Assembly (NCBI GenBank): GCA_905250025.1
Contig: CAJNOJ010000205.1
Coordinates: forward strand, 1 to 16,291
DNA: 16,291 nt
Direction: 5' to 3'
From: Adineta ricciae
Taxonomy: Eukaryota
Shown here: in pieces, positions 1,899-16,291 of the stretch
Layout: every line of letters begins with the position of its first letter
How positions within the stretch are numbered: the stretch's first letter is position 1
The notes under the pieces: model-generated
Databases searched by the model: none
What the model saw: the letters and a program-made list of their open reading frames with translations, nothing else
What the model was told of the DNA's origin: nothing
Program-made: the position numbers and the translations under genes

Positions 1899-2861
1899 AT
1901 GCTACAGAATGCGACAGAGAAAGTCATAGTTACTGGTAGAGATATCTATCTTCCTCCGAACTGGTCGGACATTACCTTCTCTTTATATATAGTTGGTCAA
2001 CTAGCATCGATTCCTTGCTATGTATTTGTATTTTATCATCTTTTGGCTACTAAAACTGCGCGCACAGCTCTCTACAATCACACTACTATAATCATGTTAT
2101 TTTTCAATTTGATCTACCTGACAATAGGTATATCATTAGTATTGATGTTCATGAAAGAGGGCGTATACATGCCATCCACTCCCGCACTTTGTCTTACTCA
2201 TCAAATGGTCGACCGTGGAGTTTGGTATGGAGCTGTATTTACAATGATTTGGCTGTGTATCGAACGACATATCCTAATCTTTTGCTCCAACTGGATCCGA
2301 ACTGCACGTGGGCAATGGGTATTTCATTATATCCCATTAGCTATTTTTTCTCTGTATGCGCCATGTTTTTATTTCTACATGATTTTCATTTATCCATGTG
2401 AGCATATATATGATTATCATGTTACTTTATGTGGTGGCCCTTGGTACTCGTGTTCGTTGTCAGCATCATTTCGTTTGTATTTAACTTTTGGCCATAACTT
2501 CATGCCATTCCCAATCATTTTCATTGTCAGCAGCAGCTTTCTACTTCGAGTCTTGATCCAAAAGCACCGTTTGAAACGTGGTAATATGTGGAAAAAGAAT
2601 CGAAAAATGATTTTACAATTTGTCTTTATTTCTACGACCTATATCAGCTTTGCTCTACCTTTCACGATGGTGAATATTACACGAAGAGTAAATGGTTATG
2701 ATGTCGATCCGAATGTGCGGACACTCTTTGATCGGATGGCCAATGTGCCAGCAATAGTTTTACCTTATGCCACCGCTATAACATTACCTCATGTGAAACA
2801 GAAACTTAAAATGTTAATCTGGTGGAAACGCACACGAACGGCTATCAATCCTTTATCGTGA
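1899..2861 (+). CDS. Rhodopsin-like 7TM receptor (orphan or chemoreceptor-type GPCR), 320 aa, apparently single exon.
   Basis: ATG-initiated ORF of 320 aa. The N-terminal ectodomain carries the sequons NAT and NWS. Seven hydrophobic segments are present. After TM3 there is an E/DRY-like motif (CIERHILIF). The third intracellular loop is basic (KHRLKRGNMWKKNRK) and the C-tail is short. The TM1 - basic loop - TM2 architecture is shared with the two partial receptor genes at the window edges. Confidence 0.6.
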   Translation: MLQNATEKVIVTGRDIYLPPNWSDITFSLYIVGQLASIPCYVFVFYHLLATKTARTALYNHTTIIMLFFNLIYLTIGISLVLMFMKEGVYMPSTPALCLTHQMVDRGVWYGAVFTMIWLCIERHILIFCSNWIRTARGQWVFHYIPLAIFSLYAPCFYFYMIFIYPCEHIYDYHVTLCGGPWYSCSLSASFRLYLTFGHNFMPFPIIFIVSSSFLLRVLIQKHRLKRGNMWKKNRKMILQFVFISTTYISFALPFTMVNITRRVNGYDVDPNVRTLFDRMANVPAIVLPYATAITLPHVKQKLKMLIWWKRTRTAINPLS

Positions 2862-3190
2862 TACATTAAACAATACAAAGAAGACAGCTTTGTCTCATTC
2901 TTCTTATTGATGTTGTCGAGAATTTGGAAATAAATAATTCTTATCGATATATAGATAAAGCGTCTGTTGCAATTTCCCATCACAGTGGAAGCTCAAGACA
3001 TAGTAGAACGAAATGTAAAAAATTTATACGCATTTGACGTTGCTATACACATCGTATGAAAGAGGAAAATGAGAGATAAAAAGCGTTATCAATTTTATAA
3101 AGAGCAGAGAACGAAAAAACATATCTCATATATAGTCAATACGGCTGTAGCTGCGTTACATTTTACGTTCTTCTTTTCGTCTTTTATCGC

Positions 3191-4726
3191 ATGATGATTT
3201 TTATTCTACTTGGCGTTGTTGCCATCCTAATTTTTCTTGTCAAAATATTCGATACGACTGACATTCCGAAGATCCACGGACTTCCTGAAGCTCCTAACTG
3301 GCCAGTATTTGGCAGTTTATTCCAGCTGGGTGAGAATCATTCGAAATCACTATCAAAATTAGCGAAAAAACTGGGTCCAGTATTTCAAATTCGTATGGGA
3401 AATCGACGCATTGTAGTGGCGAACTCATATGATTCGATCAAATATTTCTGGGTCAAAAATCAATCCGCACTGATCAGCCGACCGGCATTGCATACATTTC
3501 ATAATGTTGTCAGCAGTGAAGTTTTATCGATTGGAACTTCACCGTGGGATGAGTCATGTAAACAGCGTCGTAAGGCAGCAGCGACTGCATTGAATAAACC
3601 AGCTGTTCAGACATACATGCCCATCATCGATCATGAATCGTACACCGCAATCAACGAAATATTGCACGAGTGTCAAAATGGCAAAGCTGATATTAATATT
3701 ATTCCTCATCTTCAGCGATTTGCATTAAACACATCGTTGACCCTTAACTATGGCACACGAATAGCTTCGTCGGATGATGCACTTTTGAAAGAGATCGTTA
3801 CAGTCGAAGGAGCTGTGGCACAGTTGCGATCAGCATCGAATAATTGGCAAGATTATGTTCCCCTCCTACGAATATTTCCTGCACGATCAAACGAAGCAGC
3901 GACAATTCGTCAACGTCGAGATCGTTACCTCGTTCAGCTACTGAATGGTCTAAAAAAAGACATTGCTAATGGAGTCGACAGACCATGTATAACAGGAAAT
4001 ATCCTCAAAGATCCATCTGCTAAATTAAATGAGACAGAAATTCGAAGCATTTGTTTGACAATGATCAGTGCTGCTCTTGAAACAGTTCCAGCAAACATTA
4101 TTCTCGGTATTGGTTACCTTTCATCGCCACACGGTCAAGAAATTCAGGAACGTGCCTATCGAGAAATTCTTGATGTCTATCCGGATGGTGATGCATGGGA
4201 TAGATGTCTTGATGAAGAACAAGTTCCTTATGTCACCGCTCTCTACAAAGAAATTCTTCGTTATTATACCGTTCACCATATGAGTCTTCCTCGACGTAGT
4301 GTTCAAGATATTGAATACGAAGGTTCACGAATTCCGGCTGGTACGTCATTCTATATGAATGCATTTGCCGGTGACTACGATGAGAATCATTTCGAAGATC
4401 CGTATCAATTCAATCCCGATCGTTATCTAGGTGATGTGGATGGTACACCTCATTACGCATATGGTGCTGGAACACGAATGTGTATTGGTGCTCATTTAGC
4501 GAACCGAGAACTATACACATTTCTCATTCGACTCATCATTGGATTTCGCATTCTCGGACCATTGAATAAAGAAGATGCCGCAATCTTAGATGGAATGGAA
4601 ATCAATGCACGACCTACCGGTCTCGTTGTGCAACCAAAAATGTTCAAATGTCGTTTCGAACCGAGAAATATAGAAGATCTCAAACGATGGATAGACGATA
4701 GCAAACAACGGGCAGAGCATCATTAG
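3191..4726 (+). CDS. Cytochrome P450 monooxygenase, 511 aa, intronless, fungal-type sequence signature.
   Basis: Single ORF starting MMIFILLGVVAILIFLV, a hydrophobic ER signal-anchor. The I-helix motif is AALETVP (AGxDTT-like). The K-helix ExxR is EILR. A PERF-like FNPDRY is present. The heme loop FGAGTRMCIGAHLANRELY matches FxxGxRxCxG, and its HLANRELY continuation is characteristic of fungal CYP clans. A possible TATA (TATATAG) lies at 3129..3135, about 55 nt upstream. Confidence 0.9.
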   Translation: MMIFILLGVVAILIFLVKIFDTTDIPKIHGLPEAPNWPVFGSLFQLGENHSKSLSKLAKKLGPVFQIRMGNRRIVVANSYDSIKYFWVKNQSALISRPALHTFHNVVSSEVLSIGTSPWDESCKQRRKAAATALNKPAVQTYMPIIDHESYTAINEILHECQNGKADINIIPHLQRFALNTSLTLNYGTRIASSDDALLKEIVTVEGAVAQLRSASNNWQDYVPLLRIFPARSNEAATIRQRRDRYLVQLLNGLKKDIANGVDRPCITGNILKDPSAKLNETEIRSICLTMISAALETVPANIILGIGYLSSPHGQEIQERAYREILDVYPDGDAWDRCLDEEQVPYVTALYKEILRYYTVHHMSLPRRSVQDIEYEGSRIPAGTSFYMNAFAGDYDENHFEDPYQFNPDRYLGDVDGTPHYAYGAGTRMCIGAHLANRELYTFLIRLIIGFRILGPLNKEDAAILDGMEINARPTGLVVQPKMFKCRFEPRNIEDLKRWIDDSKQRAEHH

Positions 4727-4925
4727 AATATGAAACTTTCTTTTTTAATTAAAATAAAACGAAATGTACTTTGTTTTTCTATTCGGACAAGTCACACAAG
4801 CCGAACATTCGTATGTCTTCTTTTTTTAATTATTTTTTACATATCATCTGAAGACCTATTCACAAGTTATGGTGAAACAATAGACTGCAAAAATAAACTG
4901 TATTCGCAAAAAGATTCATTCTGCA

Positions 4926-5590
4926 ATGAATGCGTTTGTCGTTGGATTGATTCTCGGCTTGCTAGTCGCAGGAAATGTACTAGCAGTTTTTATCGTCCTG
5001 TGGCGAATATCAGGTTTGGCATTACGATGGTGCCAGTATAAATGTAATTACTTTTTTTTCTAGTCACAAGCTCTACAAGTACGAGTTTAATCAGTACAAC
5101 TGTCACAAGTACTAAGAATCGACTACATAGAAACACGCCTAGTTTTTTCATTCTTTTTCTAGATAAAACTTCAACAACAGCAGCAACTACTATGACTAGA
5201 CCTCCGTCATCGGCCTGCGTATATAATAGCAGTATAACTTTCTACAATAATCAATTTCTTTATTCTTCAACATCGCAAACTTATGCAGCTGGGATGTTAA
5301 ATAATCAATTTGGTGTTTTCAAAGCTTATAGCTATGGAAATGTAACTGCTCAAGCTATATGGACAGCAAATCAAACTTCCACATCCGTTCCATGTTTTCT
5401 TGCTTTACAAACTGACCGTAATTTAGTTGTTTACGCAACGAGTAATCAAACAGTACTATGGGCGGCTAACATTTATAATAATGGCACTGGAAAACCATTC
5501 TGTTTTGAAATATCCGATTCTGGAAACCTAATCTGGATTGACAACAGTAGCTCGATTGTCTGGCAAACAAATACAGCACAAGCGGGATAA
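4926..5590 (+). CDS. Type-II membrane-anchored bulb-type (GNA-like, B_lectin) mannose-binding lectin. Two exons, join(4926..5013, 5064..5590), about 204 aa.
   Basis: Exon 1 encodes MNAFVVGLILGLLVAGNVLAVFIVLWRIS, a 25-residue hydrophobic anchor, and ends in phase 1 at cag|GTTTGG. The 50-nt intron at 5014..5063 ends in a polypyrimidine acceptor, cttttttttctag. Exon 2 restores the frame and gives V-TSSTSTSLISTTVTSTKNRLHRNTPSFFILFLDKTSTTAATT, a Ser/Thr-rich stalk. It then joins the listed 5192..5590 ORF, which contains the canonical bulb-lectin mannose-binding motif QxDxNxVxY as LQTDRNLVVY. Two further degenerate beta-prism subdomain repeats follow (…NNQFGVFKAY…, …ISDSGNLIWID…). Confidence 0.65.
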
Positions 5591-6751
5591 TTCTTTTTCG
5601 CTTTTGACTGACCAGAAAAAAGATCTATTTGCAATGAAGTTTTTCTGTTTTCAACGTTTTATTCGCCGTAATTGACCACATTGTCGACAGATAGAATAAT
5701 AACCAAATCGTTGAGATAGTTCCCATATCCATTCCAAATGACAATATATATGGTGGAACTGTTTGAAAATAAAATACTTCACTGCATTACCATAGAGTCG
5801 ATAGATACAACGCACGGTGGTGCAAAGAGAATGCAGTTAATGTCCACCGAACGATAACTCGTCGTAGGACTGGCACGTGCCATACCATCATTGATTAAAA
5901 CATTTGCACTACCAACGAATAGATGTTCTAACGATTCTGGTTTGCAGGCTAGAAATGCTGCGCCGATAAAATTGTATACACTAACTATTAGTAACCAGTA
6001 GGAAAGATAGGGAAGAGCCATAGAACAAAATGATCTGCTTACGAGTATCTTCGTTTGTAGAACTTTGTTCTAAAGCAAGAGAAACGAAATGTAGTGTGTT
6101 TTATATTATTCATGTATTGTTATCACATCCTTATCAGCTGAATGCAATAGTTTACTCGGATGCCCCATCTTACTACTTTGTAGCGAGTTTTCATAAAATA
6201 AGAAGTTGTTAAAACAGCTATTATAGAGCAAGCCTCATTTACATCATTATGTCATATAGAAAATCGAACGCTTTCATCACCTTGAATAGTTTTAAATATG
6301 ATTTCCAAGTTTCGAAGAGTACCCTCAACGATGCATGAATACGTTCGTTGTTCCATGTCTCAAGTAATACAATTTATGATTGGTTCTTTATCTTGCGGAT
6401 AGAAATCTATTATTAGTTTAGGTAAACACACCGCTGATGGTGAACAGCACGAATTAACAGTGCACAATTATATGTCACATTCTTGCATTAGCAACGCTAA
6501 TGTGATGGAAACCATAATTTCGACTAAAACGAAGAAGAAAGAATAGGTCTGATGATTTTCTTTTTTTTATAGATCGTCTATCATCTTTTCAGAAATCGTG
6601 TTCCTTTTTATTCGGTTATCTGCATCTTAACTTAAATGAAAATCATGGTGATCGCTTGAAGCTGTTTTATTAACATCTATAGAAAAACAAATGTTTCGAC
6701 AATCTGACTTGCTCTTTTTCAGATTTTAGAAATGCATCGTTGAAGGAGTAT

Positions 6752-7969
6752 CTATTGAAATAATTCTTCGAGTCTAACCGTTTGTGTCGGTTCATAGGGC
6801 GCATACCACATTCCAAATTCTGATGCTACTAAATGAATATGTAGTATGATTTTACCATTGAGTTCAAGTTCTACTTCAATTGTATGTTTCGTATGTCCTT
6901 TGCATGCCGATTGCAGTAATGATCGAATATGTTCCACGCTCCAATACGTGTTACTCTTTTTCAAACGAAGCTGTGCTTCCATTTGCTGTCGCGTACTTTC
7001 GTAACGATGCAATGAACTAAAAATGACATTTGATTCACAATTGCGATGACATTGTGGTGAAAACAAATATGTTACCAGGACTACAGATAGGCCCTTTCAG
7101 TTCACTGGTAGCTTTGTCCGTAGGCCAACATTTTGGATGATTGTTAAGCGTTTGTATCAGATGTAAACTTTTCAAATGCAGCTTTCATATCTTGAGGGTG
7201 ATTGAGTGAGCATGAAGTGTTTGTAGCACATGAGTTGCCATATAAGGAAAAGAGGTCAAACGTTTGACTTGTGCTCCGATTTGCGAAGGTCCAGCATTTT
7301 CCGTTGAATAGATCTCGGTTTCATTGACGCTAGATAGCACACCTATCATTCCGGGCCACGATAAGCTAACGTAACGGTATTGTTTCGATGCGCCCGAACT
7401 GTTGATAGCAAATAGTAGAGTAGTCGAGACAGTCACATGATGAATATCACACTCACCATCCATATTGCGACCAGCATATGATTCGTTGATCCGCTGTTAA
7501 AGTATTCCAAACGACAAACTGACTACAGTTTATGGATCATCTGTACGCGCATCTGATCTTATCGTTCGGCGTTCAATCATACTAAATGGATGCTTCAGTT
7601 CATGAAGATAGAGATCATTCCAATATCTTCTGCTACTAAGTAAAAATAAAACCAATCGAGAATATGAGGAGCTAGTAAATATCCATGTGTATAACTTCGA
7701 TCGTCGGTTGTAATGGCATTTAGTTGTAGGACTGGAATACGATTGATTTGCTAGAATCGTGTCGCGTCTGTTTCTGTTGGATAACCGATAGCAAAGAATG
7801 AATGAGGTTTGCGTAGTATAATATCAGCATTTAAATTCGAGATTGTATGTCGAGTCCATTTCTCGCCTGTTTCATTTGTACTCCATCCAAATGCTTGCTT
7901 CTCTGGATGCACCAACGATCCATGTGTATCTGAAAAATATTCACTCTCGCCCGCCCCACCCTCAAGATG
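6752..7969 (-). pseudogene. Decayed gene remnant. Long ORF segments lie in three different minus-strand frames with an in-frame TAG between two of them. Function unknown.
   Basis: Minus-strand segments run 5'->3'. Segment 1, about 7969..7753, reads HLEGGAGESEYFSDTHGSLVHPEKQAFGWSTNETGEKWTRHTISNLNADIILRKPHSFFAIGYPTETDATRF, then a TAG. Segment 2 continues in the same frame from about 7750..7594: QINRIPVLQLNAITTDDRSYTHGYLLAPHILDWFYFYLVAEDIGMISIFMN. Segment 3 is the track ORF 7185..7463 in a second frame (…CDIHHVTVSTTLLFAINSSGASKQYRYVSLSWPGMIGVLSSVNETEIY…). Segment 4 is the track ORF 6752..7066 in a third frame (…HTIEVELELNGKIILHIHLVASEFGMWYAPYEPTQTVRLEELFQ*). I could not find consistent GT..AG introns that join these frames. 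Confidence 0.3.
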
Positions 7970-8081: not shown

Positions 8082-9897
8082 ATGCTATTTCTACCTGTCT
8101 TTCTGTTGTTAATATGGATACGAGCTGTTGTCTTGCTAGATTTGATGAGCGATACATGGACGGCAACCGATGGCCTTGGTCGTTCTCTCCCCAAAACAGT
8201 ACCGTCACCACGAGCAGATCGATTCGTTGGGATGTTCTATTTTCTCTGGCTTGGCTTTGAATCACCTGATGGACCATTTGACATCAGTAAAATTCTCACA
8301 GCTCATCCAAATGCAATGTTAGAACCGAATAATTCCGCATGGGGGCCGATGACTCATTATCATCACTGGGGTGAACCTTATTTTGGCTACTATCGTTCAA
8401 ACGATCAATGGGTTATTCGGCGACATGCGAGAATGCTGGTCAATGCTGGTGTTGATGTTATCTTCTTCGATGTCACAAATACTGCTGTTTATCTCGAGTC
8501 TTTTCGAGCTATATGCCAAGCCTTTTCCGATGTGCGTGCTGTAGGAGGGTCAACACCGCAAGTTGCATTTCTCACACCTTTTGGATCACCGCTCGGAACG
8601 GTGCAAGTTCTTTTCGACAGTATTTATAAGATAAACTATCATCCGGAACTGTGGTTTCGATGGGAAGGCAAACCATTCATCCTTGCCAATCCACAATCCT
8701 TTCAAACACGTCCGGATATTTTAAATTTTTTTACTTTTCGGACGCCTCAGCCTGATTATTTCACTGGGCCAACTGGTGCCAATCAATGGGGTTGGTTAGA
8801 AATATATCCTCAACACGTCTACAAAACTAGTGCAAACATATCGGAACAAATGACTGTTGGTGTCGCACAGAACGCCGTTGGCAATCGACTGGGATCGATG
8901 AGTGAAGTTGGTTCTCATGGGCGTAGTTTTCATAACAATACTATTCCATCAGGTAATACATTAACACCGTACGGATTAAATATGCAAGAGCAATGGGAAC
9001 GCGCCATAGAAATTGATCCACAATTTGTATTTGTTACTGGTTGGAATGAATGGATTGCTATGCGTCTATCGGAATTCGCTAGTATAAAACTTCCAGTTAT
9101 GTTTGTCGATGAATTCGATTGGGAACATAGTCGTGATATTGAGCCTTGTGCTGGAGGAGTTAACGGAGGGTATCCTGAAGGTAGGCAGCGTGATTTCTAT
9201 TCAGTTATTAATATGTAATGGTTTCCTAGGAAATCATTATCAGGATGCGTACTATTATCAATTAGTGAGCAATGTTCGTCGTTATAAAGGCGCTCGATCT
9301 GTTCCAATACCTACTGAACCGAAAACCATCAATATTGGACAAGATTTTACGCAATGGGAAACGGTTGGACCATCATTCATTGATTATATCAATGACGTAG
9401 AACATCGCAATGAGACTGGATACAACACTAGTATGCACTACCGGGATGATACAGGTCGAAATGACATTATCTTAGTCAAAGTAGCGAGAGACATGAACAA
9501 TGTTTACTTTTATGCTCGAACTAATAACACGCTGACGAATGCGAATAATAGTTCTAACTGGATGTTACTCTTTATTGATATTGATCAAAATTTTACAACA
9601 GGATGGGAAGGATTTGATATTGTAGTTAATCGTCACATTAATGGTTCGCTTACATCTATAGAACGAAGTCAATCTGGCTGGATTTGGCAACTCGTTTCAC
9701 AAATTGCTTTTGCCACCGTTAACCATGAATTACACTTCGCTATTCCCAGAGCGTTATTAGGTTTCAACAGCACAGCTCCTGTCAAGGTTAATTTCAAGTG
9801 GGTAGATAATATGATACGTGATGGCGATATTCTCAGTCTTTTTCAAAATGGAGACACTGCTCCGGATGGTCGGTTCAGTTATGTATTTAATGGTTAG
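8082..9897 (+). CDS. Secreted TIM-barrel glycoside-hydrolase-like protein of bacterial type. Two exons, join(8082..9180, 9230..9897), 588 aa.
   Basis: Two track ORFs (8082..9218 and 9103..9897) sit in different frames. They are joined exactly by a 49-nt GT..AG intron at 9181..9229 (GTAGGCAG…gtttcctAG). The donor falls after codon position 1, so G|GA reconstitutes Gly and gives …GGYPEG-NHYQDAYYYQ…. The N-terminus MLFLPVFLLLIWIRAVVLL is signal-peptide-like. The catalytic-domain motifs are those of bacterial (beta/alpha)8 glycosidases: HYHHWGEPYFGYYRSNDQWVIRRHARMLVNAGVDVIFFDVTN and a strand ending FVFVTGWNEWIAM (an 'NEW' motif, as in GH99/GH71/GH114-type and GHL families). The C-terminal ~250 aa form a beta-sandwich-like domain (NVYFYARTNNTLTN…WMLLFIDIDQNFTTGWEGFDIVVNR). 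A possible TATA (TATTTATA) lies at 8043..8050. Confidence 0.8.
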
Positions 9898-9938: not shown

Positions 9939-11461
9939 CTAAACTGCTTGAGCATGCGCTTCTTGTTTGGTTTTCTTTTGAAAAGTGCTCAATCCATCGT
10001 ATTCATTGTCACCCCAATAGAAAATAAGACTCTTTTCTGTTGCACCTTGTCCATATGGATAATACTTCTGATAGTCTAATGTATTGCTTAGTCCTCCCTT
10101 TTGGTCCACCAGAAGAATCACATTTTGATCATTTGGTTTGATAGTATTTCGCAGAACTGTATTACCAGATGCATACGAAATCGAAATTTCACCACCACCT
10201 GTACGATTGTTGTCATTTTGTTCAAGACGATTGTCAGTAAATGAACAATTCACCACTCGACCACGTCTAAAAGCGTTCATTTTCGTTATTCATTAACAGA
10301 AAAACTCTTAAGAAATCATTTACTTAGAATCATATCCACCGAAGGCCAATCCATATTTATCATTGTGATGAAGATAATTATTTCGCACAGTCATCTTCGT
10401 ACCTATTTGACCTTTATTCTCTGCACCAATTTCAATTCCCATGTCTGAATGATGTACTTCATTGTTTTCTATGGTGACATTCGATGCTCCATCAACATAG
10501 ATACCAGCTGCACTATGATCGTAAACTGAATGAATGTTCCAAACTGTGTTATTCGCACATCGAGCACTTCGAACCCCCAATTTACCGGCCCAGCTTTCAC
10601 CAGCTAATATTATGTTATATAGTTAACTTTTAATTAGAGAAATCATCAAAAGTCATACCGATGAAATCGATTCCAATGTTATTCATGTTATATACTTTGT
10701 TGTTCGTTACTTGAATCTCCTCAACGTTTCCATTGAAAGTCAAAGCTTCACTCCATGCTGGCTCACAATCATGGAGCGTGCAATTATCAACGATCACTTG
10801 TCGTCGACTCGTTTTCTGGTTTGTGTTATAAACGGTAATCGCCATTGCACCGCCGTTTTCGCCACCACCACGGATATCGTGAATATGGAGATTTCGAAGT
10901 TCTAGAAACATAAACTATATTTTTGGTAACGACAGCTTCAAAAACCTACCAACATTGGTTCCAGCGCCAGTAATTCTCACTCCACTGCATTCTGTCGATT
11001 TCAAACCTGTCAATTCTAAGTTGACAAAGCGGAGATAACTTTTATCTTGAACAAAGATTATATTTAATGTTCCATCAGCGGATGCTTTTTTTGTATCTTT
11101 GCCAGAAATAATCGGTGCATTGTTTGATGTTAAACTAGTGAATGTAATCGGCCCGTCTTGAGCATTGCCTTGGACGTTAATTGTGACAGCTTCGTAATAC
11201 GTTCCGGCACCAATGTAAACGGTAGAACCAGGTGTTGCCGAATTTGCTGCTTTTTGAACTGTTAACCAAGCAGTGGTTTCAGTAGTTCCTGCATTGGTAT
11301 CCTTGCCAGATTTGGTCACATAGTAAGATTTACCCGCTACTATTTAAAATAAACACATAGAACATTTTACGCTCAATCATATGATAGGCGTTCGTGTACA
11401 TACTTATTTGCATCCATAAAAGGGCACTCATCAAACATATAAGTTGAAATTGGAACGACAT
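9939..11461 (-). CDS. Secreted right-handed parallel beta-helix (PbH1-repeat, pectin-lyase-fold) protein, bacterial type, paralog 1. Five exons, complement(join(9939..10266, 10324..10603, 10659..10901, 10950..11339, 11404..11461)), 432 aa.
   Basis: Exon 1 is 58 nt and encodes MSFQFQLICLMSALLWMQI, a signal peptide. It ends in phase 1 at A|GTATGT. Intron 1 is 64 nt and ends tttattttaaatAG. Exon 2 begins …AGKSYYVTKSGKDTNAGTTETTAWLTVQKAANSATPGSTVYIGAGTYYE, the N-terminal cap signature of bacterial beta-helix proteins, and ends AATGTTG|GTAGGT. Intron 2 is 48 nt. Exon 3 encodes ELRNLHIHDIRGGG…NNIGIDFIG and ends ATCG|GTATGA. Intron 3 is 55 nt. Exon 4 carries PbH1 repeats (NVTIENNEVHHSDMGIEIGAEN…TVRNNYLHHNDKYGLAFGGYDSK) and ends TCTAA|GTAAAT. 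Intron 4 is 57 nt. Exon 5 encodes …TGGGEISISYASGNTVLRNTIKPN…SLIFYWGDNEYDGLSTFQKKTKQEAHAQAV*. Exon lengths sum to 1299 nt, which is 433 codons. All four junctions restore the frames of the track ORFs 10915..11319, 10630..10911, 10320..10580 and 9939..10280. Confidence 0.8.
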
Positions 11462-11508
11462 GATGAAAATCGTGAATACGAATGAGGTGGTAGATGTTTA
11501 TGTCGTTT

Positions 11509-11517
11509 CTTTATATA
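11509..11517 (-). promoter_or_regulatory. TATA box (TATATAAAG on the minus strand) about 48 nt upstream of the paralog-1 start codon.
   Basis: On the minus strand the sequence reads TCTTATATAAAGAAACGACATAAACATCTACCACCTCATTCGTATTCACGATTTTCATC-ATG. A near-identical arrangement, GGTATATATAAAGAAG…ATC-ATG, is found upstream of paralog 3. The corresponding position in paralog 2 is degenerate (GGTATGTTCACGC). Confidence 0.5.
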
Positions 11518-11900
11518 AGACATAGGTTACGATTAAAAGCGCAGGCAAATATTTACACCTCTTCTACTGTTTAGTCATAAACGGTTTCTTTTGAAATCGT
11601 GTCATGCATAGCCTCCAGCGCTGTGAATGCATTCTGTTCTGTATCAGAAACAAATCAACAATCTCCCTTGTGAAAAGATGCCATTAGAGGCATTAGTAAC
11701 CAATGTTTTTCTTCGTGACCATGCATTTGCAAACGTAAAATAATCATGACTACGTGTCGTCACCTTTATCGATTGAAACGATAATTACATTTTTCAATTT
11801 TTTCTTTCTCTCGCCTTCTCACAAGCTGACAATGTCGTCACTATCATGTGACTGGCAAACACGACATATCTTTATTCAAAACTTATGTAAACAAATGTTT

Positions 11901-13646
11901 CTACTCCAAGGCACGTTTACCAACACTGATCTGTGCATGCATCTCTTGTTTTGTATTCTCTTGGAATGCAGTGAGACCCTGGTATTCTCTATGTCCCCAA
12001 TAGAAGATTAGACTTTCTTTTGTTGCACCTCGTCCGTTCGGATAGTACTTTTGATAATCGAAGTGATTATTCAAACCACCTCTTTGGCTTGCTACTAGGA
12101 TTACGTTCTGTCTGTTTGGCTTTATTGTATTGCGCTGCACTATATTACCAGAAGCAAATGAAATGGAAATTTCTCCGCCACCAGTCAGATGTGCATCATT
12201 CTGTTCAAGATGATTGCCAGTAAATGAACTATTTGTCACTGTACCACATCTGTAAAATATCAGTATACATTTATTGATACTACCAAAATATGTGCGAATA
12301 TAACTTACTGAGAATCATATCCACCAAAAGCTAAGCCATATTTGTCGTTGTGATGAAGATAATTATTTCGAACAATCACCCTTGTAGCCATTCGACCTTT
12401 ATTCTCTGCACCAATTTCAATTCCCATATCTGCATGATGCACTACGTTGTGTTCTATGGTGACATTCGATGCTCCATCAACATAGATACCAGCTGCACTA
12501 TGATCGTAAACTGAATGAATGTTCCAAACTGTGTTATTCGCACATCGAGCACTTCGAACCCCCAATTTACCGGCCCAGCTTTCACCAGCTAGTAATATGT
12601 TATATAGTTAACTTTTAATTAGAGAAATCATCAAAAGTCATACCGATGAAATCGATTCCAATGTTGTTCATGTTATATACTTTGTTGTTCGTTACTTGAA
12701 TCTCCTCAACGTTTCCATTGAAAGTCAAAGCTTCGCTCCAAGCTGGCTCACAATCATGAAGCGTGCAATTATCAACGATCACTTGTCGTCGACTCGCGTT
12801 CTGGTTTGTGTTATAAACGGTAATCGCCATTGCACCGCCGTTTTCGCCACCACCACGGATATCGTGAACGTGGAGATTTCGAAGTTCTAGGAATATAAAA
12901 GGATAATTTTAATATCGATAAGCGTGAAACCTACCAATATTCGTTCCAGGGCCGATTATTCTCACTCCACTACACTCTACCGCTCTCAAATTTGTTAGTT
13001 CTAAATTGACGAACCGTAAATAGCTTTTGTCTTCAATATAGATGACATTGAATGTTTCATCGGCAGATGGATTTTGTGAAATTCTACCAGAAATAATTGG
13101 CACGTTGTTTGATATCAAACTAGTGAACGTAATTGGTCCATCGTGTGCATTTCCTTCTACGTTAATCGTCACTGTTTCATAATAAATGCCAGGACCAATA
13201 TAGACAGTAGAACCAGGTGTCGCTGAATTCGCTGCTCTTTGTATCGTTAACCAAGCAGTTACTCTACTTGTTCCCGCATTGGTATCTTGACCAGATTTCA
13301 TTACGTAATACGATCTGCGCGCCACTATGTAATAAACGCATACCCTTCTGTCGAGAATTATTGTTGTAGACTCACGGATAAAAAAAATGAATATATCAGA
13401 TCTGATAGAAAACTTTATGTTGAACATCTCAACGGTACACTTTGTCAGATATTCAAAATACATGCACTCATGTTTCAAGATTTATTCACTTACTTCCATC
13501 TTGCGTCCCGGGTGAGATTTTGTTCACTAGAAATTGAACTAGCACAGAGTGCTGCATGCTCAATTAGACAAATATTATGCATACGTACTTATTTGCGTCC
13601 ATAAAAGACCGGTGGCTAAATACATAGAATGCAGTCGATCAAACAT
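11901..13646 (-). CDS. Beta-helix protein paralog 2, the middle copy. Exons 2-5 are intact but the 5' end is divergent. Proposed model: complement(join(11901..12249, 12309..12588, 12644..12886, 12935..13324, 13589..13646)), about 439 aa if the homologous exon 1 is used.
   Basis: Exons 2-5 are the same length as in paralog 1 apart from exon 5 (390, 243 and 280 nt, with exon 5 at 349 nt). Junctions are homologous: AATATTG|GTAGGT, ATCG|GTATGA and TCTCA|GTAAGT. Introns 2, 3 and 4 are 48, 55 and 59 nt. Exon 2 encodes …ARRSYYVMKSGQDTNAGTSRVTAWLTIQRAANSATPGSTVYIGPGIYYE…. Exon 5 ends …KQEMHAQISVGKRALE*. The sequence homologous to exon 1 (13589..13646) encodes MFDRLHSMYLATGLLWTQI, which is no longer hydrophobic. 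It is separated from exon 2 by a 264-nt interval at 13325..13588 rather than a ~60-nt intron. No TATA box lies upstream. Whether this copy is expressed or secreted is uncertain. Confidence 0.6.
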
Positions 13647-13976
13647 GATGAAAATGATCAATGTGAATGAGGTATCAGATGCTCGTATCGTGCGTGAACA
13701 TACCAGAAGAAGTTTGCATTACTGATAAATATTTTCTTTGCATAGTGCGTCACGCATCGCTCTAGTATATGGAAAAATTGGCATTAAAAGTGTTAGTAAC
13801 CAGTGTTTTTCTCTTCATGACTATGCGTTTTGCAAATATAAATAAAACATGCCTATATGTCACCGCCTCCTCAGATCGAAGTGATGATTGCATATTTCAA
13901 TTTTCTCTTTCTCATCTTCCGACAACAGTGTCACTTTCATGTGATTTGCGATCGCAACATATATTTCATTCAAACT

Positions 13977-15530
13977 TTATAGAAAAAAGCGTTTACGTCC
14001 AAAGGCACGTTTGCTAACGCCGAGTTCTGCATGCATTTCTTGTTTGGTATTCTGTTGAAAGGAAGTCAAACCATCATACTCCGTGTTTCCCCAAAAGAAG
14101 ATAAGACTTTCTTTGGTAGCACCTTGACCATTCGGATAGTACTTTTGATAGTCAAATTGATTATTCAAACCACCTTCTTGGCTGGCAAGTAGAATTACAT
14201 TTTGTGAGTTTGGTCTTATCGTGTTACCATAGACTACATTGCCCGAAGCAAATGAGATTGAAATTTCTCCACCACCGGTAAGACGTACATCGTTCTGTTC
14301 AAGACGATTATTTATAAATAAACTATTGGTGACTTGACCACGTCTATAATGTGTTAACGTGCTCGTACTTTCATGTCACGAGATTATGCATAAATATAAC
14401 TTACTGAGAATCATATCCGCCAAAAGCTAAGCCATATTTGTCATTGTGATGAAGATAATTATTCCGAACAGTCATTTTTGAAGCCACTCGACCTTTATTC
14501 TCTGCGCCAACTTCGATCCCCATGTCCGAATGGTGTACTTCGTTAGATTCGATAGTGACATTCGATGCTCCATCAACATAGATACCCGCTGAACTACTAT
14601 CATAGACGGAGTGAATGTTCCACACGAGGTTATAAGCACAGAGACCATTTCGTACTCCAAGAGCACCGAGGAAGCTTTCTCCACCTTTAGAAAAAGAAAA
14701 AAAATATAACATTTCTGATATTTGACTGAGTTCTACATACCAATGAAATCGATTCCAATGTTGTTCATGTTATACACTTTGTTGTTCGTTACTTGAAAAT
14801 CTTCAATATTTCCATTGAAAGTCAAAGCTTCACTCCACGCTGGCTCGCAATCATGGAGTATACAACTATCAACGATCACTTGTCGTCGACTTGCCGTTTG
14901 ATCTTTATTGTAAACCGTGATTGGCATTGCTCCACCGCTCTGTCCACCGCCACGAATATCATGAATGTGCAAACCTCGAAGTTCTTGAAGCAAAAGCTAT
15001 ATTTTTGGTAACGACAGCATCAAAACCTACCAACATTGGTTCCAGCACCAGTAATTCTCACACCACTACATTCTACTGCTTTCAAATCTGTCAATTCTAA
15101 ATTGACAAAGCGCAAATAGCTTTTCTCTTGAATAAAAATTATGTTCATGGTGCCATCAGCAGATTCTGTTTTAGCCTGTTTGCCAGATATCACTGCTGGC
15201 TTATCAAAGATCAAGCTAGCGAATGTAATTAGTCCATCTCGGGCATTTCCTTGTACATTGACTGTTACTGTTTCATAATACGTTCCAGGACCAATGTAAA
15301 CCGTGGATCCGGGTGTTGCTGAATTCGCAGCTTTTTGAACTGTTAACCAAGCAGATGTCTCACTCGTTCCTGCATTGGTATCCTTGCCAGATTTCGTTAC
15401 ATAGTATGTTCTACCAGCTACTATATAATAGCCATACAGAAGACCTTATATTTCATAGTAGAAAATCTTTGCACATACCTGTTTGAGTCCAAAGTAAAAG
15501 AAAAGTGAAACAAGCAAGTCCTGTTTGCAT
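13977..15530 (-). CDS. Secreted beta-helix protein paralog 3. Five exons, complement(join(13977..14343, 14405..14684, 14741..14983, 15031..15420, 15479..15530)), 443 aa.
   Basis: Exon 1 is 52 nt and encodes MQTGLACFTFLLLWTQT, a signal peptide, ending G|GTATGT. Intron 1 is 58 nt and ends tattatatAG. Exon 2 encodes VAGRTYYVTKSGKDTNAGTSETSAWLTVQKAANSATPGSTVYIGPGTYYE… and ends AATGTTG|GTAGGT. Intron 2 is 47 nt and ends gcttcaAG. Exon 3 encodes ELRGLHIHDIRGGGQSGG…NNIGIDFIG and ends ATTG|GTATGT. Intron 3 is 56 nt and ends ttctaaAG. Exon 4 encodes GESFLGALGVRNG…GGYDSQ and ends CA|GTAAGT. Intron 4 is 61 nt and ends cattatAG. Exon 5 encodes …GGGEISISFASGNVVYGNTIRPN…SLIFFWGNTEYDGLTSFQQNTKQEMHAELGVSKRAFGRKRFFL*. 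Exon lengths sum to 1332 nt, which is 444 codons. Confidence 0.8.
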
Positions 15531-15855: not shown

Positions 15856-16291
15856 TTATTTAGTGATGCCTGCACCTGTATGAGTCGCTGTTAACGTTGG
15901 TCGAACTCGATGTTGATTTTTGCTACATCCAAACATCATAATACATTCTTGCCGAAATTCTTTAAATGTGAGAAAATAAAGTGGAAATGACAAGATATGA
16001 TAAGTATACAAAACTGGATCTAGAATTTTAACCGATATTGGTGGAGGTATGTCAGAAAATGCAGAGGCAATGGTTGCTGGTACTGTCATGATCAGAAAGA
16101 GACATGTTGTAATAACCAGTGTAATCGAAATCGCTCGGTGATTGATTCGGGAGTTTTGAATCAATTGTGTTTGGTGACGACGATATAAATGATGAATCAC
16201 TCCACTATTAAGTGTCACCATAAGAATAAACGGTGCAAAATTGTACACACCTAAATTGACATAATCCCATAAGGGATAAATAATGTATAGT
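15856..16291 (-). CDS. Rhodopsin-like 7TM receptor, 3' portion (about TM3/4 to the C-terminus). The gene starts beyond the right edge.
   Basis: The minus-strand frame is open from the right edge to a stop at 15856..15858. The track 'M' at 16248 is a GTG codon inside the ORF. The translation reads …LYIIYPLWDYVNLGVYNFAPFILMVTLNSGVIHHLYRRHQTQLIQNSRINHRAISITLVITTCLFLIMTVPATIASAFSDIPPPISVKILDPVLYTYHILSFPLYFLTFKEFRQECIMMFGCSK… It contains a TM7 NPxxY-like motif (DPVLY) and a basic intracellular loop, as in the 1899..2861 receptor. Confidence 0.55.
   Translation of the reverse strand, partial: LYIIYPLWDYVNLGVYNFAPFILMVTLNSGVIHHLYRRHQTQLIQNSRINHRAISITLVITTCLFLIMTVPATIASAFSDIPPPISVKILDPVLYTYHILSFPLYFLTFKEFRQECIMMFGCSKNQHRVRPTLTATHTGAGITK

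What the first reader, a model, noticed from the sequence alone, without database searches (positions are those of the whole stretch)
3191..4726. Intronless fungal-type cytochrome P450 embedded among intron-containing genes
The P450 is complete. It has a membrane anchor, the I-helix AALET, ExxR, FNPDRY and the heme loop FGAGTRMCIGAHLANRELY. Its heme-loop extension HLANRELY and its N-terminal region (…LPEAPNWPVFGSL…ISRPALHTF…) look more like fungal xenobiotic or secondary-metabolism CYPs than like animal CYP clans. It has no introns, whereas its neighbours have 1-4. This is the pattern expected of a relatively recent horizontal acquisition from a fungus, or of a retrogene.
Basis: partly seen in the sequence, partly recalled or inferred. 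Interest (0 to 1): 0.55.

Follow-up and report, generated by a model that had tools for sequence, protein, structure and literature searches.

The report
Old fungal P450 gene in rotifer
This is an intact cytochrome P450 gene of the fungal phenylacetate-hydroxylase family (CYP504) that bdelloid rotifers took from an ascomycete fungus long ago and have kept working ever since, which makes it a clear but ordinary example of the foreign-gene uptake these animals are known for.

Summary
Window 3191-4726 (+) is one uninterrupted 511-codon P450 gene with all signature motifs. One detail is wrong: the heme loop starts YGAG, not FGAG. The window is Adineta ricciae, a bdelloid rotifer.

The protein is 59-62% identical (about 700-740 bits) to Pezizomycotina proteins annotated "phenylacetate 2-hydroxylase" (CYP504). 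The best solved animal P450, CYP1A1, scores 108 bits. In a bootstrapped tree, all rotifer-type copies form one clade (96%) surrounded only by fungal sequences. So fungal origin is supported, and a retrogene of an animal CYP is not.

"Relatively recent" is wrong:
- The gene sits at syntenic loci in A. ricciae and A. vaga.
- A second paralogue locus (P450 next to FAM194) is shared by Adineta and Rotaria.
- Codon usage is fully host-like (GC3 0.31 against 0.55-0.62 in fungi).
- dN/dS is about 0.06-0.08.

Lack of introns says nothing about age. All nine bdelloid copies checked are intronless, and so is the closest fungal relative. Bacterial-derived neighbours in the same window have gained introns.

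The likely function is an ER-anchored aromatic-acid (phenylacetate-type) hydroxylase; this is inferred, not tested. It is a new member of a known kind, of moderate-to-low interest.

The parts
3191..4726 (+). Single-exon CDS (511 aa plus stop) of a CYP504-type cytochrome P450 of fungal ancestry in Adineta ricciae
   Evidence: It is a single ORF matching Pfam p450 at E=1.9e-60. It is 59-62% identical to Pezizomycotina phenylacetate 2-hydroxylases. The exact protein is encoded on A. ricciae contig CAJNOR010002926.1.
3191..3250 (+). N-terminal hydrophobic segment (aa 1-20, MMIFILLGVVAILIFLVKIF), read as the ER membrane anchor of a class II microsomal P450
   Evidence: Read directly from the translation. 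The anchor function is inferred from what is established for microsomal P450s.
4070..4084 (+). I-helix oxygen-activation motif AALET (acid-alcohol pair E297-T298). It is a lineage-specific variant of the family-typical AGLDT.
   Evidence: Position. AALET occurs in 14 of 52 rotifer-clade sequences. AGLDT occurs in 62 of 65 fungal and 23 of 52 rotifer-clade sequences.
4250..4261 (+). K-helix ExxR motif (EILR, aa 354-357)
   Evidence: Position. It reads EILR or EVLR in all 52 rotifer-clade sequences.
4409..4426 (+). PERF-region motif FNPDRY (aa 407-412)
4460..4516 (+). Heme-binding loop YGAGTRMCIGAHLANRELY. Cys431 (nt 4481-4483) is the predicted thiolate ligand of the heme iron.
   Evidence: Position. 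YGAGSRMCxG plus HLANREL[YF] is shared with the fungal CYP504 hits.
3129..3134 (+). TATA-like hexamer 62 nt upstream of the ATG; a possible host-type core promoter element (inferred only)
   Evidence: Pattern scan. The 144 nt upstream of the ATG are conserved with A. vaga at about 82% as part of one BLASTN hit.
4748..4753 (+). ATTAAA 22 nt after the stop codon; a possible polyadenylation signal (inferred only)
   Evidence: Pattern scan.
1899..2861 (+). Context: upstream rhodopsin-type GPCR-like gene (320 aa), also a single exon; host-type neighbour
   Evidence: ORF. Weak 7tm_1 match, E=0.002 and below the Pfam cut-off. Single-exon 320-aa model on the sister contig.
4926..5590 (+). Context: bulb-lectin-like gene (about 186 aa) with about 100 nt of introns
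   Evidence: Gene model. B_lectin match at E=7.5e-6, below the Pfam cut-off.
8082..9897 (+). Context: 588-aa gene of bacterial ancestry with one 49-nt intron (9181-9229)
   Evidence: Splice model. Non-rotifer hits are Actinomycetes and Armatimonadota at 50-55% identity. Syntenic in A. vaga.
9939..15430 (-). Context: three tandem Pel9A-like right-handed beta-helix genes of bacterial ancestry, each with short introns (about 9939-11319, 11901-13478 and 13977-15430)
   Evidence: Pfam Beta_helix and Pel9A-like matches. A three-intron model for copy A. Non-rotifer hits are bacterial at 38-49% identity. The copies are 75-81% identical to each other, and A. vaga has one copy at this locus.

Best explanation
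The gene is a domesticated horizontal acquisition.

**Origin (shown).** A CYP504-family P450 gene, the family of Aspergillus PhacA phenylacetate 2-hydroxylase, moved once from an ascomycete fungus (Pezizomycotina or a close relative) into the bdelloid rotifer lineage. This happened before Adineta and Rotaria diverged. The gene then duplicated into several paralogue lineages. The window holds the A. ricciae member of one of them. Its composition has been completely remodelled to that of the host, and it has been kept under strong purifying selection.

**Mechanism (inferred from the family, not tested).**
- The protein is anchored in the ER membrane by its N-terminal helix.
- It receives electrons from the host NADPH-cytochrome P450 reductase.
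- It binds heme through Cys431 and activates O2 with the E297/T298 pair.
- It ring-hydroxylates phenylacetate or a similar small aromatic acid.
- The product, 2-hydroxyphenylacetate and after a second hydroxylation homogentisate, could enter the animal's own homogentisate/fumarylacetoacetate route. Alternatively it could simply be a detoxified form of a microbial metabolite.
For: **Identity and host**
- The exact protein is encoded on an A. ricciae contig.
- A 98%-identical copy lies on a second, collinear A. ricciae contig.
- The 88%-identical A. vaga orthologue lies at 14.17 Mb of a 20.35-Mb chromosome with the same neighbours.

**Fungal ancestry**
- The top non-rotifer hits are all Pezizomycotina "phenylacetate 2-hydroxylase" proteins at 59-62% identity and 694-740 bits.
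- In an NJ tree of 174 sequences with 200 bootstraps, the rotifer-type sequences are monophyletic (96%).
- Their sister is a gene on a fungal contig that carries Fungal_trans, HgmA and FAA-hydrolase genes (69%).
- Next out is a clade of 63 Pezizomycotina hits plus Pyrenula; the node joining it to the rotifer clade and its sister has 75% support.
- All 17 named outgroup clusters are fungi: Neolecta, Penicillium, Whalleya, Hypoxylon, Aspergillus, Exophiala, Kuraishia, Sugiyamaella, Vanrija, Serpula, Botryobasidium, Termitomyces and Basidiobolus among them.
- The best solved animal CYP (CYP1A1) scores 108 bits.

**Age**
- The subgroup containing the window (99% bootstrap) holds A. ricciae, A. vaga, A. 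steineri and R. magnacalcarata. Other Adineta and Rotaria copies lie outside it.
- The P450-FAM194 arrangement is shared by A. vaga and R. sordida.
- GC3 is 0.31 against 0.62 and 0.55 in fungal homologues.
- RSCU correlates at r=0.75 with the host GPCR ORFs and at -0.32 and 0.25 with the fungal genes.

**Still functional**
- dN/dS is 0.06-0.08.
- All catalytic motifs are conserved.
- The window protein keeps 84% of the 256 positions that are at least 95% conserved in the closest fungal proteins. More distant fungal relatives keep 33-62%.

**Family function**
- phacA encodes phenylacetate 2-hydroxylase and phacB a 3-hydroxyphenylacetate 6-hydroxylase; both feed the homogentisate pathway (PMC6723986).
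- Fungal homologues sit beside hmgA and fahA.
Against: - No enzyme assay or expression data were examined for this gene.
- The Aspergillus nidulans CYP504A1 reference sequence itself was not compared. Family assignment rests on database names and on 59-62% identity to annotated Aspergillus, Penicillium-relative and other proteins.
- The window's subgroup has AALET in place of the family's AGLDT in the I-helix. Together with the multiple paralogues, this leaves room for a changed substrate or regiochemistry.
- The hmgA/fahA neighbours of the fungal genes did not come along, and I did not check whether the rotifer has homogentisate-pathway genes.
- The tree is neighbour-joining on Kimura distances, not maximum likelihood. 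Support for the exact sister (69%) and for the CYP504A-type clade (75%) is moderate, so the donor lineage is only roughly placed.
- Absence from monogonont rotifers and other animals rests on no such names appearing among the 120 best hits.
Confidence: 0.88

Rival explanations
1. Recent horizontal transfer from a fungus into A. ricciae or the genus Adineta. On this view the gene is intronless because it has not yet had time to acquire host features.
For: - The gene has no introns, while bdelloid genes average 4-5 introns (PMC5916493).
- GC of the coding region (0.415) is slightly above the window mean of 0.379.
Against: - Orthologues and paralogues are present in A. vaga, A. steineri and five or more Rotaria species.
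- Synteny is conserved within Adineta, and for the FAM194 locus between Adineta and Rotaria.
- GC3 and RSCU cannot be told apart from host genes.
- Protein identity to any fungus is at most 62%, with saturated synonymous sites.
- The slightly higher GC is a first-codon-position effect (GC1 0.549), not GC3.
Confidence: 0.03
2. Retrogene: a processed copy of an intron-containing animal CYP gene, or a fungal mRNA reverse-transcribed and integrated. This would explain the lack of introns.
For: - The gene is intronless.
- Some fungal homologues do contain introns: two in Lophiotrema and about 300 nt in A. fumigatus. An RNA intermediate could therefore have removed them.
Against: - There is no animal parent gene. 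The nearest solved animal CYP scores 108 bits against about 740 bits for fungi.
- The downstream sequence printed shows no long A-run after the stop codon.
- The closest fungal relative (P0055, on contig L007) is itself a single 1548-nt ORF. An intronless DNA donor is therefore sufficient.
- An RNA-mediated transfer from a fungus cannot be excluded, but nothing requires it.
Confidence: 0.04
3. Fungal DNA contamination or assembly chimera in the rotifer assembly.
For: - The contig is short (17.7 kb).
- Bdelloid cultures and their habitats do contain fungi.
Against: - The gene lies between rhodopsin-type GPCR-like genes in AT-rich DNA.
- The same arrangement is found on a second A. ricciae contig and inside a 20-Mb A. 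vaga chromosome.
- Codon usage is that of the rotifer.
- Metagenomic relatives are flanked by animal-type genes such as 7tm_1 and LDL-receptor class A.
Confidence: 0.01
4. Vertical inheritance of an ancient opisthokont P450 that was lost in all other sampled animals.
For: - Animals and fungi are sister kingdoms.
- CYP504 is distantly related to animal clan-2 CYPs; CYP1A1, CYP17 and CYP21 are the best solved matches.
Against: - The rotifer clade sits inside the ascomycete part of the family. It is closer to Pezizomycotina than the Taphrinomycotina, Saccharomycotina and Basidiomycota homologues are. A clade holding the rotifer, Pezizomycotina, Neolecta and Kuraishia sequences (Sugiyamaella falls outside it) excludes the basidiomycete sequences with 95% bootstrap.
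- This reading would need losses in every other animal lineage.
- No other animal name appears among the 120 best hits.
Confidence: 0.03

Closest known systems
Aspergillus nidulans PhacA (CYP504A1) and its Pezizomycotina orthologues (phenylacetate 2-hydroxylase; PahA in Penicillium)
   Same: - Same length class (511 against 515-521 aa).
- 59-62% identity over the whole protein to proteins annotated as this enzyme, including Aspergillus entries.
- Shared signature motifs ISRPxLHTF, YGAGSRMCxG and HLANREL[YF].
- 84% of the family's near-invariant positions are retained.
- Presumably the same ER-anchored class II P450 chemistry.
   Different: - Encoded in an animal genome.
- AT-rich codon usage (GC3 0.31 against 0.55-0.62).
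- Not adjacent to hmgA or fahA, unlike the fungal genes in L006 and L007.
- I-helix reads AALET instead of AGLDT.
- Substrate is untested.
- The A. nidulans reference sequence itself was not available for comparison.
Aspergillus nidulans PhacB (CYP504B1; 3-hydroxyphenylacetate / 3,4-dihydroxyphenylacetate 6-hydroxylase)
   Same: - Same CYP family and the same pathway (PMC6723986).
- The several rotifer paralogues could in principle have split such activities among themselves.
   Different: - More distant fungal family members are only 36-47% identical and keep 45-62% of the conserved positions.
- The rotifer clade groups with the phenylacetate 2-hydroxylase-annotated set rather than with these.
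- Which distant cluster is PhacB was not established.
Other horizontally acquired enzyme genes of bdelloid rotifers (Gladyshev et al. 2008; Boschetti et al. 2012, PMC3499245; Nowell et al. 2018, PMC5916493; Nowell et al. 2024, PMC11258130)
   Same: - Non-metazoan ancestry.
- Linkage to host genes.
- Shared across bdelloid species; about 80% of HGT candidates are shared by four species.
- Enzyme function, with a proposed role in degrading toxic or unusual compounds.
- Foreign genes of different origins clustered at one locus. Here these are fungal and bacterial, the combination Boschetti et al. also drew.
   Different: - This particular family (CYP504) was not named in any paper I could search.
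- The only P450 discussed by Nowell et al. 2024 is a metazoan CYP4-like gene.
Animal clan-2 P450s (CYP1A1, CYP17A1, CYP21A2, CYP2 family)
   Same: - Same fold class and microsomal architecture.
- They are the closest solved structures (E=3e-30 to 1e-20).
   Different: - Only 108 bits, with roughly a quarter of aligned residues identical (my estimate from the alignment).
- The gene does not belong to any metazoan clan by similarity ranking.

Membership tests
Cytochrome P450 superfamily (PF00067) | Profile match above the curated threshold over the whole catalytic domain | tested here: met
   E=1.9e-60, 205.4 bits against a cut-off of 22.8, aa 33-456 on profile positions 3-436 of 462.
Cytochrome P450 superfamily (PF00067) | Heme-thiolate loop F/YxxGxRxCxG, K-helix ExxR, and the I-helix acid-alcohol pair | tested here: met
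   YGAGTRMCIG (Cys431), EILR (354-357) and AALET (E297-T298). All are conserved across the rotifer clade.
CYP504 family (fungal phenylacetate / hydroxyphenylacetate hydroxylases) | At least 40% amino-acid identity to family members (the P450 nomenclature rule; above 55% for a subfamily) | tested here: met
   Identity is 55-62% to 65 Pezizomycotina proteins, many annotated as phenylacetate 2-hydroxylase. Caveat: the named reference CYP504A1 sequence itself was not in hand. CYP504 = phacA/phacB according to PMC6723986.
CYP504 family (fungal phenylacetate / hydroxyphenylacetate hydroxylases) | Phylogenetic placement inside the family clade | tested here: met
   In the NJ tree, rotifer clade + P0055 + 63 Pezizomycotina + Pyrenula has 75% bootstrap. 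A wider clade that excludes the basidiomycete relatives has 95%.
CYP504 family (fungal phenylacetate / hydroxyphenylacetate hydroxylases) | Hydroxylation of phenylacetate or hydroxyphenylacetates | not testable with these tools
   This needs heterologous expression and an enzyme assay.
CYP504 family (fungal phenylacetate / hydroxyphenylacetate hydroxylases) | Genomic association with homogentisate-pathway genes (hmgA, fahA). This is typical of some fungi and is not a strict criterion. | tested here: not met
   The association is present in Lophiotrema (L006) and in the fungal contig L007. It is absent from the window and from the A. vaga, R. magnacalcarata, A. steineri and R. sordida loci.
   The best solved animal CYP scores 108 bits, against 694-740 bits for fungi. 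None of the 17 named neighbouring clusters is an animal. Animal CYP sequences were not themselves placed in the tree.
Bdelloid horizontally acquired gene (criteria as in Nowell et al. 2018, PMC5916493) | Grouping with non-metazoan orthologues to the exclusion of metazoan ones | tested here: met
Bdelloid horizontally acquired gene (criteria as in Nowell et al. 2018, PMC5916493) | Physical linkage to host (metazoan-type) genes, and not on a scaffold that looks like a contaminant | tested here: met
   - Flanking 7tm_1-like genes (weak matches).
- FAM194 lies next to the paralogue.
- The A. vaga orthologue sits inside a 20-Mb chromosome.
- Caveat: several neighbours in this window are themselves of bacterial ancestry.
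Bdelloid horizontally acquired gene (criteria as in Nowell et al. 2018, PMC5916493) | Presence of spliceosomal introns (supporting evidence of domestication) | tested here: not met
   There are no introns in any of the nine bdelloid copies examined.
Retrogene | An intron-bearing parent gene in the same lineage, and a poly(A) remnant at the 3' end | tested here: not met
   All paralogues are intronless, and there is no animal parent. The downstream sequence printed shows no long A-run after the stop codon. I did not look for target-site duplications.

The most novel reading that the evidence does not exclude
The CYP504 paralogues may be the missing middle of a catabolic route assembled in an animal from three kingdoms.
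- Bacterial-derived nitrilase or nitrile hydratase would turn phenylacetonitrile into phenylacetate. Boschetti et al. 2012 reported these enzymes as expressed in A. ricciae.
- The fungal-derived P450 paralogues would hydroxylate phenylacetate stepwise to homogentisate. Different paralogues, for example the AALET and AGLDT I-helix types, would have split the 2- and 5/6-hydroxylation steps.
- The animal's own homogentisate dioxygenase and fumarylacetoacetase would finish the job.

This would let bdelloids use, or disarm, a common microbial and plant aromatic metabolite.
Probability: 0.2. Interest if true: 0.5.

Novelty: new member of a known kind. Interest (0 to 1): 0.3.

Why it matters
Large-scale uptake of bacterial and fungal genes by bdelloid rotifers is well established, so this gene does not change that picture. 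It adds three things:

- **A clean, well-resolved case.** A fungal P450 family (CYP504) has been kept for a very long time in an animal, expanded into several paralogues, and held under strong constraint. This points to a real metabolic use, probably handling phenylacetate-like aromatic acids from the microbial diet or habitat.
- **A methodological caution.** Absence of introns is not a clock. This old transfer is still intronless in every copy, while bacterial-derived genes a few kilobases away have gained introns.
- **A testable link.** Foreign nitrile-degrading enzymes already reported in A. ricciae would produce this enzyme's presumed substrate.

Tried and rejected
- **Literature.** Searches for rotifer + "phenylacetate 2-hydroxylase", CYP504 + Adineta, and Adineta + P450 + clan all returned nothing. 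The supplements of Boschetti 2012 and Nowell 2024 do not mention this gene. Their P450 entries are KEGG pathway names or a metazoan CYP4-like gene.
- **Naming the metagenomic relatives.** I tried to name the organisms behind the unnamed members of the rotifer clade and behind the closest fungal sequence, P0055. The cluster look-ups carry no organism names. I therefore used gene context instead. P0055's contig has fungal-specific genes. P0039's contig has animal-type genes. The donor lineage could not be narrowed beyond an ascomycete close to Pezizomycotina.
- **Tree method.** No maximum-likelihood tree software was available. I used neighbour-joining with 200 bootstraps.
- **Animal CYPs.** These were not placed in the tree because no sequences were retrievable. 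I relied on score ranking against solved structures.
- **Small ORFs.** Pfam scans of the small ORFs between 5779 and 7463 gave nothing. The Erg28 gene annotated on the sister contig was not confirmed in the window.
- **Brute-force splice search.** The search for the 588-aa gene gave many formal solutions. I chose the 49-nt intron at 9181-9229 because it reproduces the annotated 588-aa length.
- **Structure prediction.** I judged it unnecessary because the Pfam match and the motifs are unambiguous.
Full report
**1. What is in the sequence**

Window 3191-4726 (+) is one open reading frame of 511 codons, running from an ATG to a TAG. The nearest in-frame stop upstream is at 3098. It matches Pfam p450 (PF00067) at E=1.9e-60 over aa 33-456.

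- a 20-residue hydrophobic N-terminus;
- AALET at aa 294-298;
- EILR (ExxR) at aa 354-357;
- FNPDRY at aa 407-412;
- the heme loop at aa 424-442.

The single error is that the loop reads YGAGTRMCIGAHLANRELY, with Tyr rather than Phe. Tyr is the normal residue in this family. The ORF aligns with homologues from about residue 6 to 508, so it is full length. Independent public annotations model it as a single exon.

**2. Where the window comes from**

The exact protein is encoded on Adineta ricciae contig CAJNOR010002926.1 in assembly GCA_905250095.1. A. ricciae is a bdelloid rotifer.
- A second A. ricciae contig carries a 98%-identical copy. It is collinear with the whole window at 88.6-94% nucleotide identity.
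- The A. vaga orthologue is 88% identical. It lies at 14.17 Mb of a 20.35-Mb chromosome, followed by the same lectin-like, 588-aa and beta-helix genes.

This rules out contamination or an assembly artefact.

**3. Whose gene it is**

Among 5.8 billion clustered proteins, the 53 best hits (63-98% identity) are either named Adineta or Rotaria proteins or unnamed metagenome proteins. The following hits that carry organism names (down to rank 120) are all Pezizomycotina proteins at 58-62% identity and 694-740 bits, many annotated as phenylacetate 2-hydroxylase; the rest are unnamed metagenome or Logan proteins. The best solved structure is human CYP1A1 at 108 bits.

An exhaustive HMMER scan of 1.84 billion representatives found 235 clusters at E ≤ 1e-30. 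I looked up 20 of them or their neighbours. All 17 that carry an organism name are fungi, spanning Pezizomycotina, Taphrinomycotina, Saccharomycotina, Basidiomycota and Basidiobolus.

I built a neighbour-joining tree of 174 full-length sequences (512 columns, 200 bootstraps):
- The rotifer-type sequences are monophyletic at 96%.
- Their sister (69%) is P0055. Its contig carries a fungal-specific transcription factor, homogentisate dioxygenase and fumarylacetoacetase.
- Next out is a clade of 63 Pezizomycotina sequences plus Pyrenula; the node joining it to the rotifer clade has 75% support.
- A wider clade excludes the basidiomycete relatives at 95%.
- One basal unnamed member of the rotifer clade (P0039) sits between a rhodopsin-type GPCR gene and LDL-receptor-domain genes, so it is in an animal genome.

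Fungal ancestry through one acquisition is well supported.

**4. How old it is**

- The subgroup containing the window (99% bootstrap) includes A. ricciae, A. vaga, A. steineri and Rotaria magnacalcarata. Other copies from A. vaga, A. steineri and several Rotaria species lie outside it. At least one duplication therefore predates the Adineta-Rotaria split.
- Independently, a second locus has the P450 next to a FAM194 gene in both A. vaga and R. sordida. In R. sordida it has duplicated in tandem.
- Third-position GC is 0.31 in the window gene. It is 0.15 in A. vaga and 0.32 in R. magnacalcarata, against 0.62 in Lophiotrema and 0.55 in the P0055 fungus.
- Its RSCU correlates at r=0.75 with the window's GPCR ORFs and at -0.32 and 0.25 with the two fungal genes.
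- Synonymous sites are saturated against fungi and against Rotaria. dS is about 1.0 between A. ricciae and A. vaga.

This fits the published finding that about 80% of bdelloid HGT candidates are shared by four species (PMC5916493). "Relatively recent" is not supported.

**5. The intron argument**

All nine bdelloid copies I examined are uninterrupted ORFs. They cover three paralogue groups and come from A. ricciae (two copies), A. vaga (two), A. steineri, R. magnacalcarata, R. sordida (two) and one metagenomic contig.

Fungal homologues vary. There are no introns in P0055, two in Lophiotrema and about 300 nt of introns in A. fumigatus. An intronless DNA donor is enough to explain the structure, so no retro-processing is needed.

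The intron-bearing neighbours are not all native genes:
- The 588-aa gene (8082-9897, one 49-nt intron) has Actinomycetes and Armatimonadota as its closest non-rotifer relatives, at 50-55% identity.
- The three tandem beta-helix genes (9939-15430, at least three introns in copy A) have bacterial relatives at 38-49%.

Meanwhile the GPCR-like gene directly upstream (1899-2861) is itself a single exon. Intron content therefore separates neither foreign from native genes nor recent from old ones at this locus.

**6. Is it working, and what does it do**

dN/dS is 0.06-0.08 in every unsaturated comparison. The catalytic motifs are conserved throughout the clade. The window protein keeps 84% of the 256 positions that are at least 95% conserved in the 65 closest fungal proteins. 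More distant fungal relatives keep 33-62%.

The family's characterised members are Aspergillus nidulans PhacA (phenylacetate 2-hydroxylase) and PhacB (3-hydroxyphenylacetate / 3,4-dihydroxyphenylacetate 6-hydroxylase). Both feed the homogentisate pathway (PMC6723986). The fungal homologues in L006 and L007 lie beside hmgA and fahA.

I infer an ER-anchored class II P450 that uses the host reductase and hydroxylates phenylacetate or a similar small aromatic acid. This is inference from family membership. No assay or expression data were examined.

Two observations leave room for altered specificity. The window's subgroup has AALET where the family has AGLDT in the I-helix, and there are several long-lived paralogues.

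Boschetti et al. reported that A. ricciae expresses bacterial-derived nitrilase and nitrile hydratase that act on phenylacetonitrile (PMC3499245). By my own reading of that KEGG pathway, which the paper's text does not state, the product would be phenylacetate or its amide, the presumed substrate here. That paper does not mention the P450 step.

**7. Comparison with what is known, and novelty**

The phenomenon is thoroughly documented: massive HGT into bdelloids, fungal donors included, mostly ancient, mostly enzymes, with foreign genes of different origins side by side (PMC3499245, PMC5916493, PMC11258130). The gene is already in public annotation, and some UniRef entries for its orthologues are auto-named "Phenylacetate 2-hydroxylase".

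I found no paper that names CYP504 in rotifers. I therefore file it as a new member of a known kind. It is a member of the P450 superfamily, with all defining features met. By identity and tree position it belongs to the CYP504 family, with its activity untested.

**8. Verdict**

- Observation: confirmed, with one residue misread and one neighbour wrongly described as intron-containing.
- Interpretation: partly supported. Fungal origin is right. "Recent" and "retrogene" are wrong.
- Interest: moderate to low (0.3).
- Most novel reading still open: a three-kingdom phenylacetonitrile/phenylacetate-to-homogentisate route in an animal (probability about 0.2).

Noticed in passing
window 9939-15430 (- strand): There are three tandem Pel9A-like right-handed beta-helix genes, 75-81% identical to each other at the DNA level, each with short introns. 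Their closest non-rotifer relatives are bacterial at 38-49% identity; some carry T9SS sorting domains. A. vaga has a single copy at the syntenic position, so the array expanded in the A. ricciae lineage. Public gene models fuse two of the copies into one 801/851-aa protein.
   Followed up: partly
window 8082-9897 (+), intron 9181-9229: This is a 588-aa secreted-looking protein with only a weak GH99-like Pfam match. It is 50-55% identical to Actinomycetes and Armatimonadota hypothetical proteins. It is conserved in A. vaga and A. steineri and has gained one 49-nt intron. It is a second, bacterial-derived foreign gene 3.4 kb from the fungal-derived P450.
   Followed up: partly
window 4070-4084 (aa 294-298): The I-helix motif is AALET in the 14 sequences of the window's subgroup. 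The fungal family and most other rotifer paralogues have AGLDT. This is a possible sign of altered oxygen activation or substrate positioning in this paralogue lineage.
   Followed up: partly
L012 3707-5266 and 10001-11557 (R. sordida); L008 6001-7536 (A. vaga): A second CYP504 locus lies next to a FAM194 gene in both A. vaga and R. sordida. In R. sordida it has duplicated in tandem, with two intronless copies 4.7 kb apart.
   Followed up: partly
L006 1-4660 (Lophiotrema nucula) and L007 4026-10489 (unidentified fungus, SRR22405829): In both fungi the CYP504 gene sits in a homogentisate-catabolism cluster with homogentisate dioxygenase and fumarylacetoacetase; L007 also has a fungal-specific transcription factor. 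Only the P450 is found in the rotifer loci.
   Followed up: partly
window 4926-5590 (+): This is a bulb-type (B_lectin) lectin-like gene directly downstream of the P450, conserved in A. vaga. The Pfam match is below threshold (E=7.5e-6). I did not examine its origin.
   Followed up: no
window 5779-7463 (-) against L003 5606-8603: The window's contig has one 264-aa gene model here with no Pfam match. The collinear sister contig is annotated with an Erg28 gene and a 591-aa gene in the same interval. Either the annotations disagree or one copy is degenerating. Pfam scans of the window ORFs found nothing.
   Followed up: partly
window 1899-2861 (+) and 15856-16248 (-): The two flanking rhodopsin-type GPCR-like ORFs match 7tm_1 only weakly (E about 0.002-0.003, below the Pfam cut-off). 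The upstream one is a single exon and has no nucleotide-level counterpart at the A. vaga locus.
   Followed up: no
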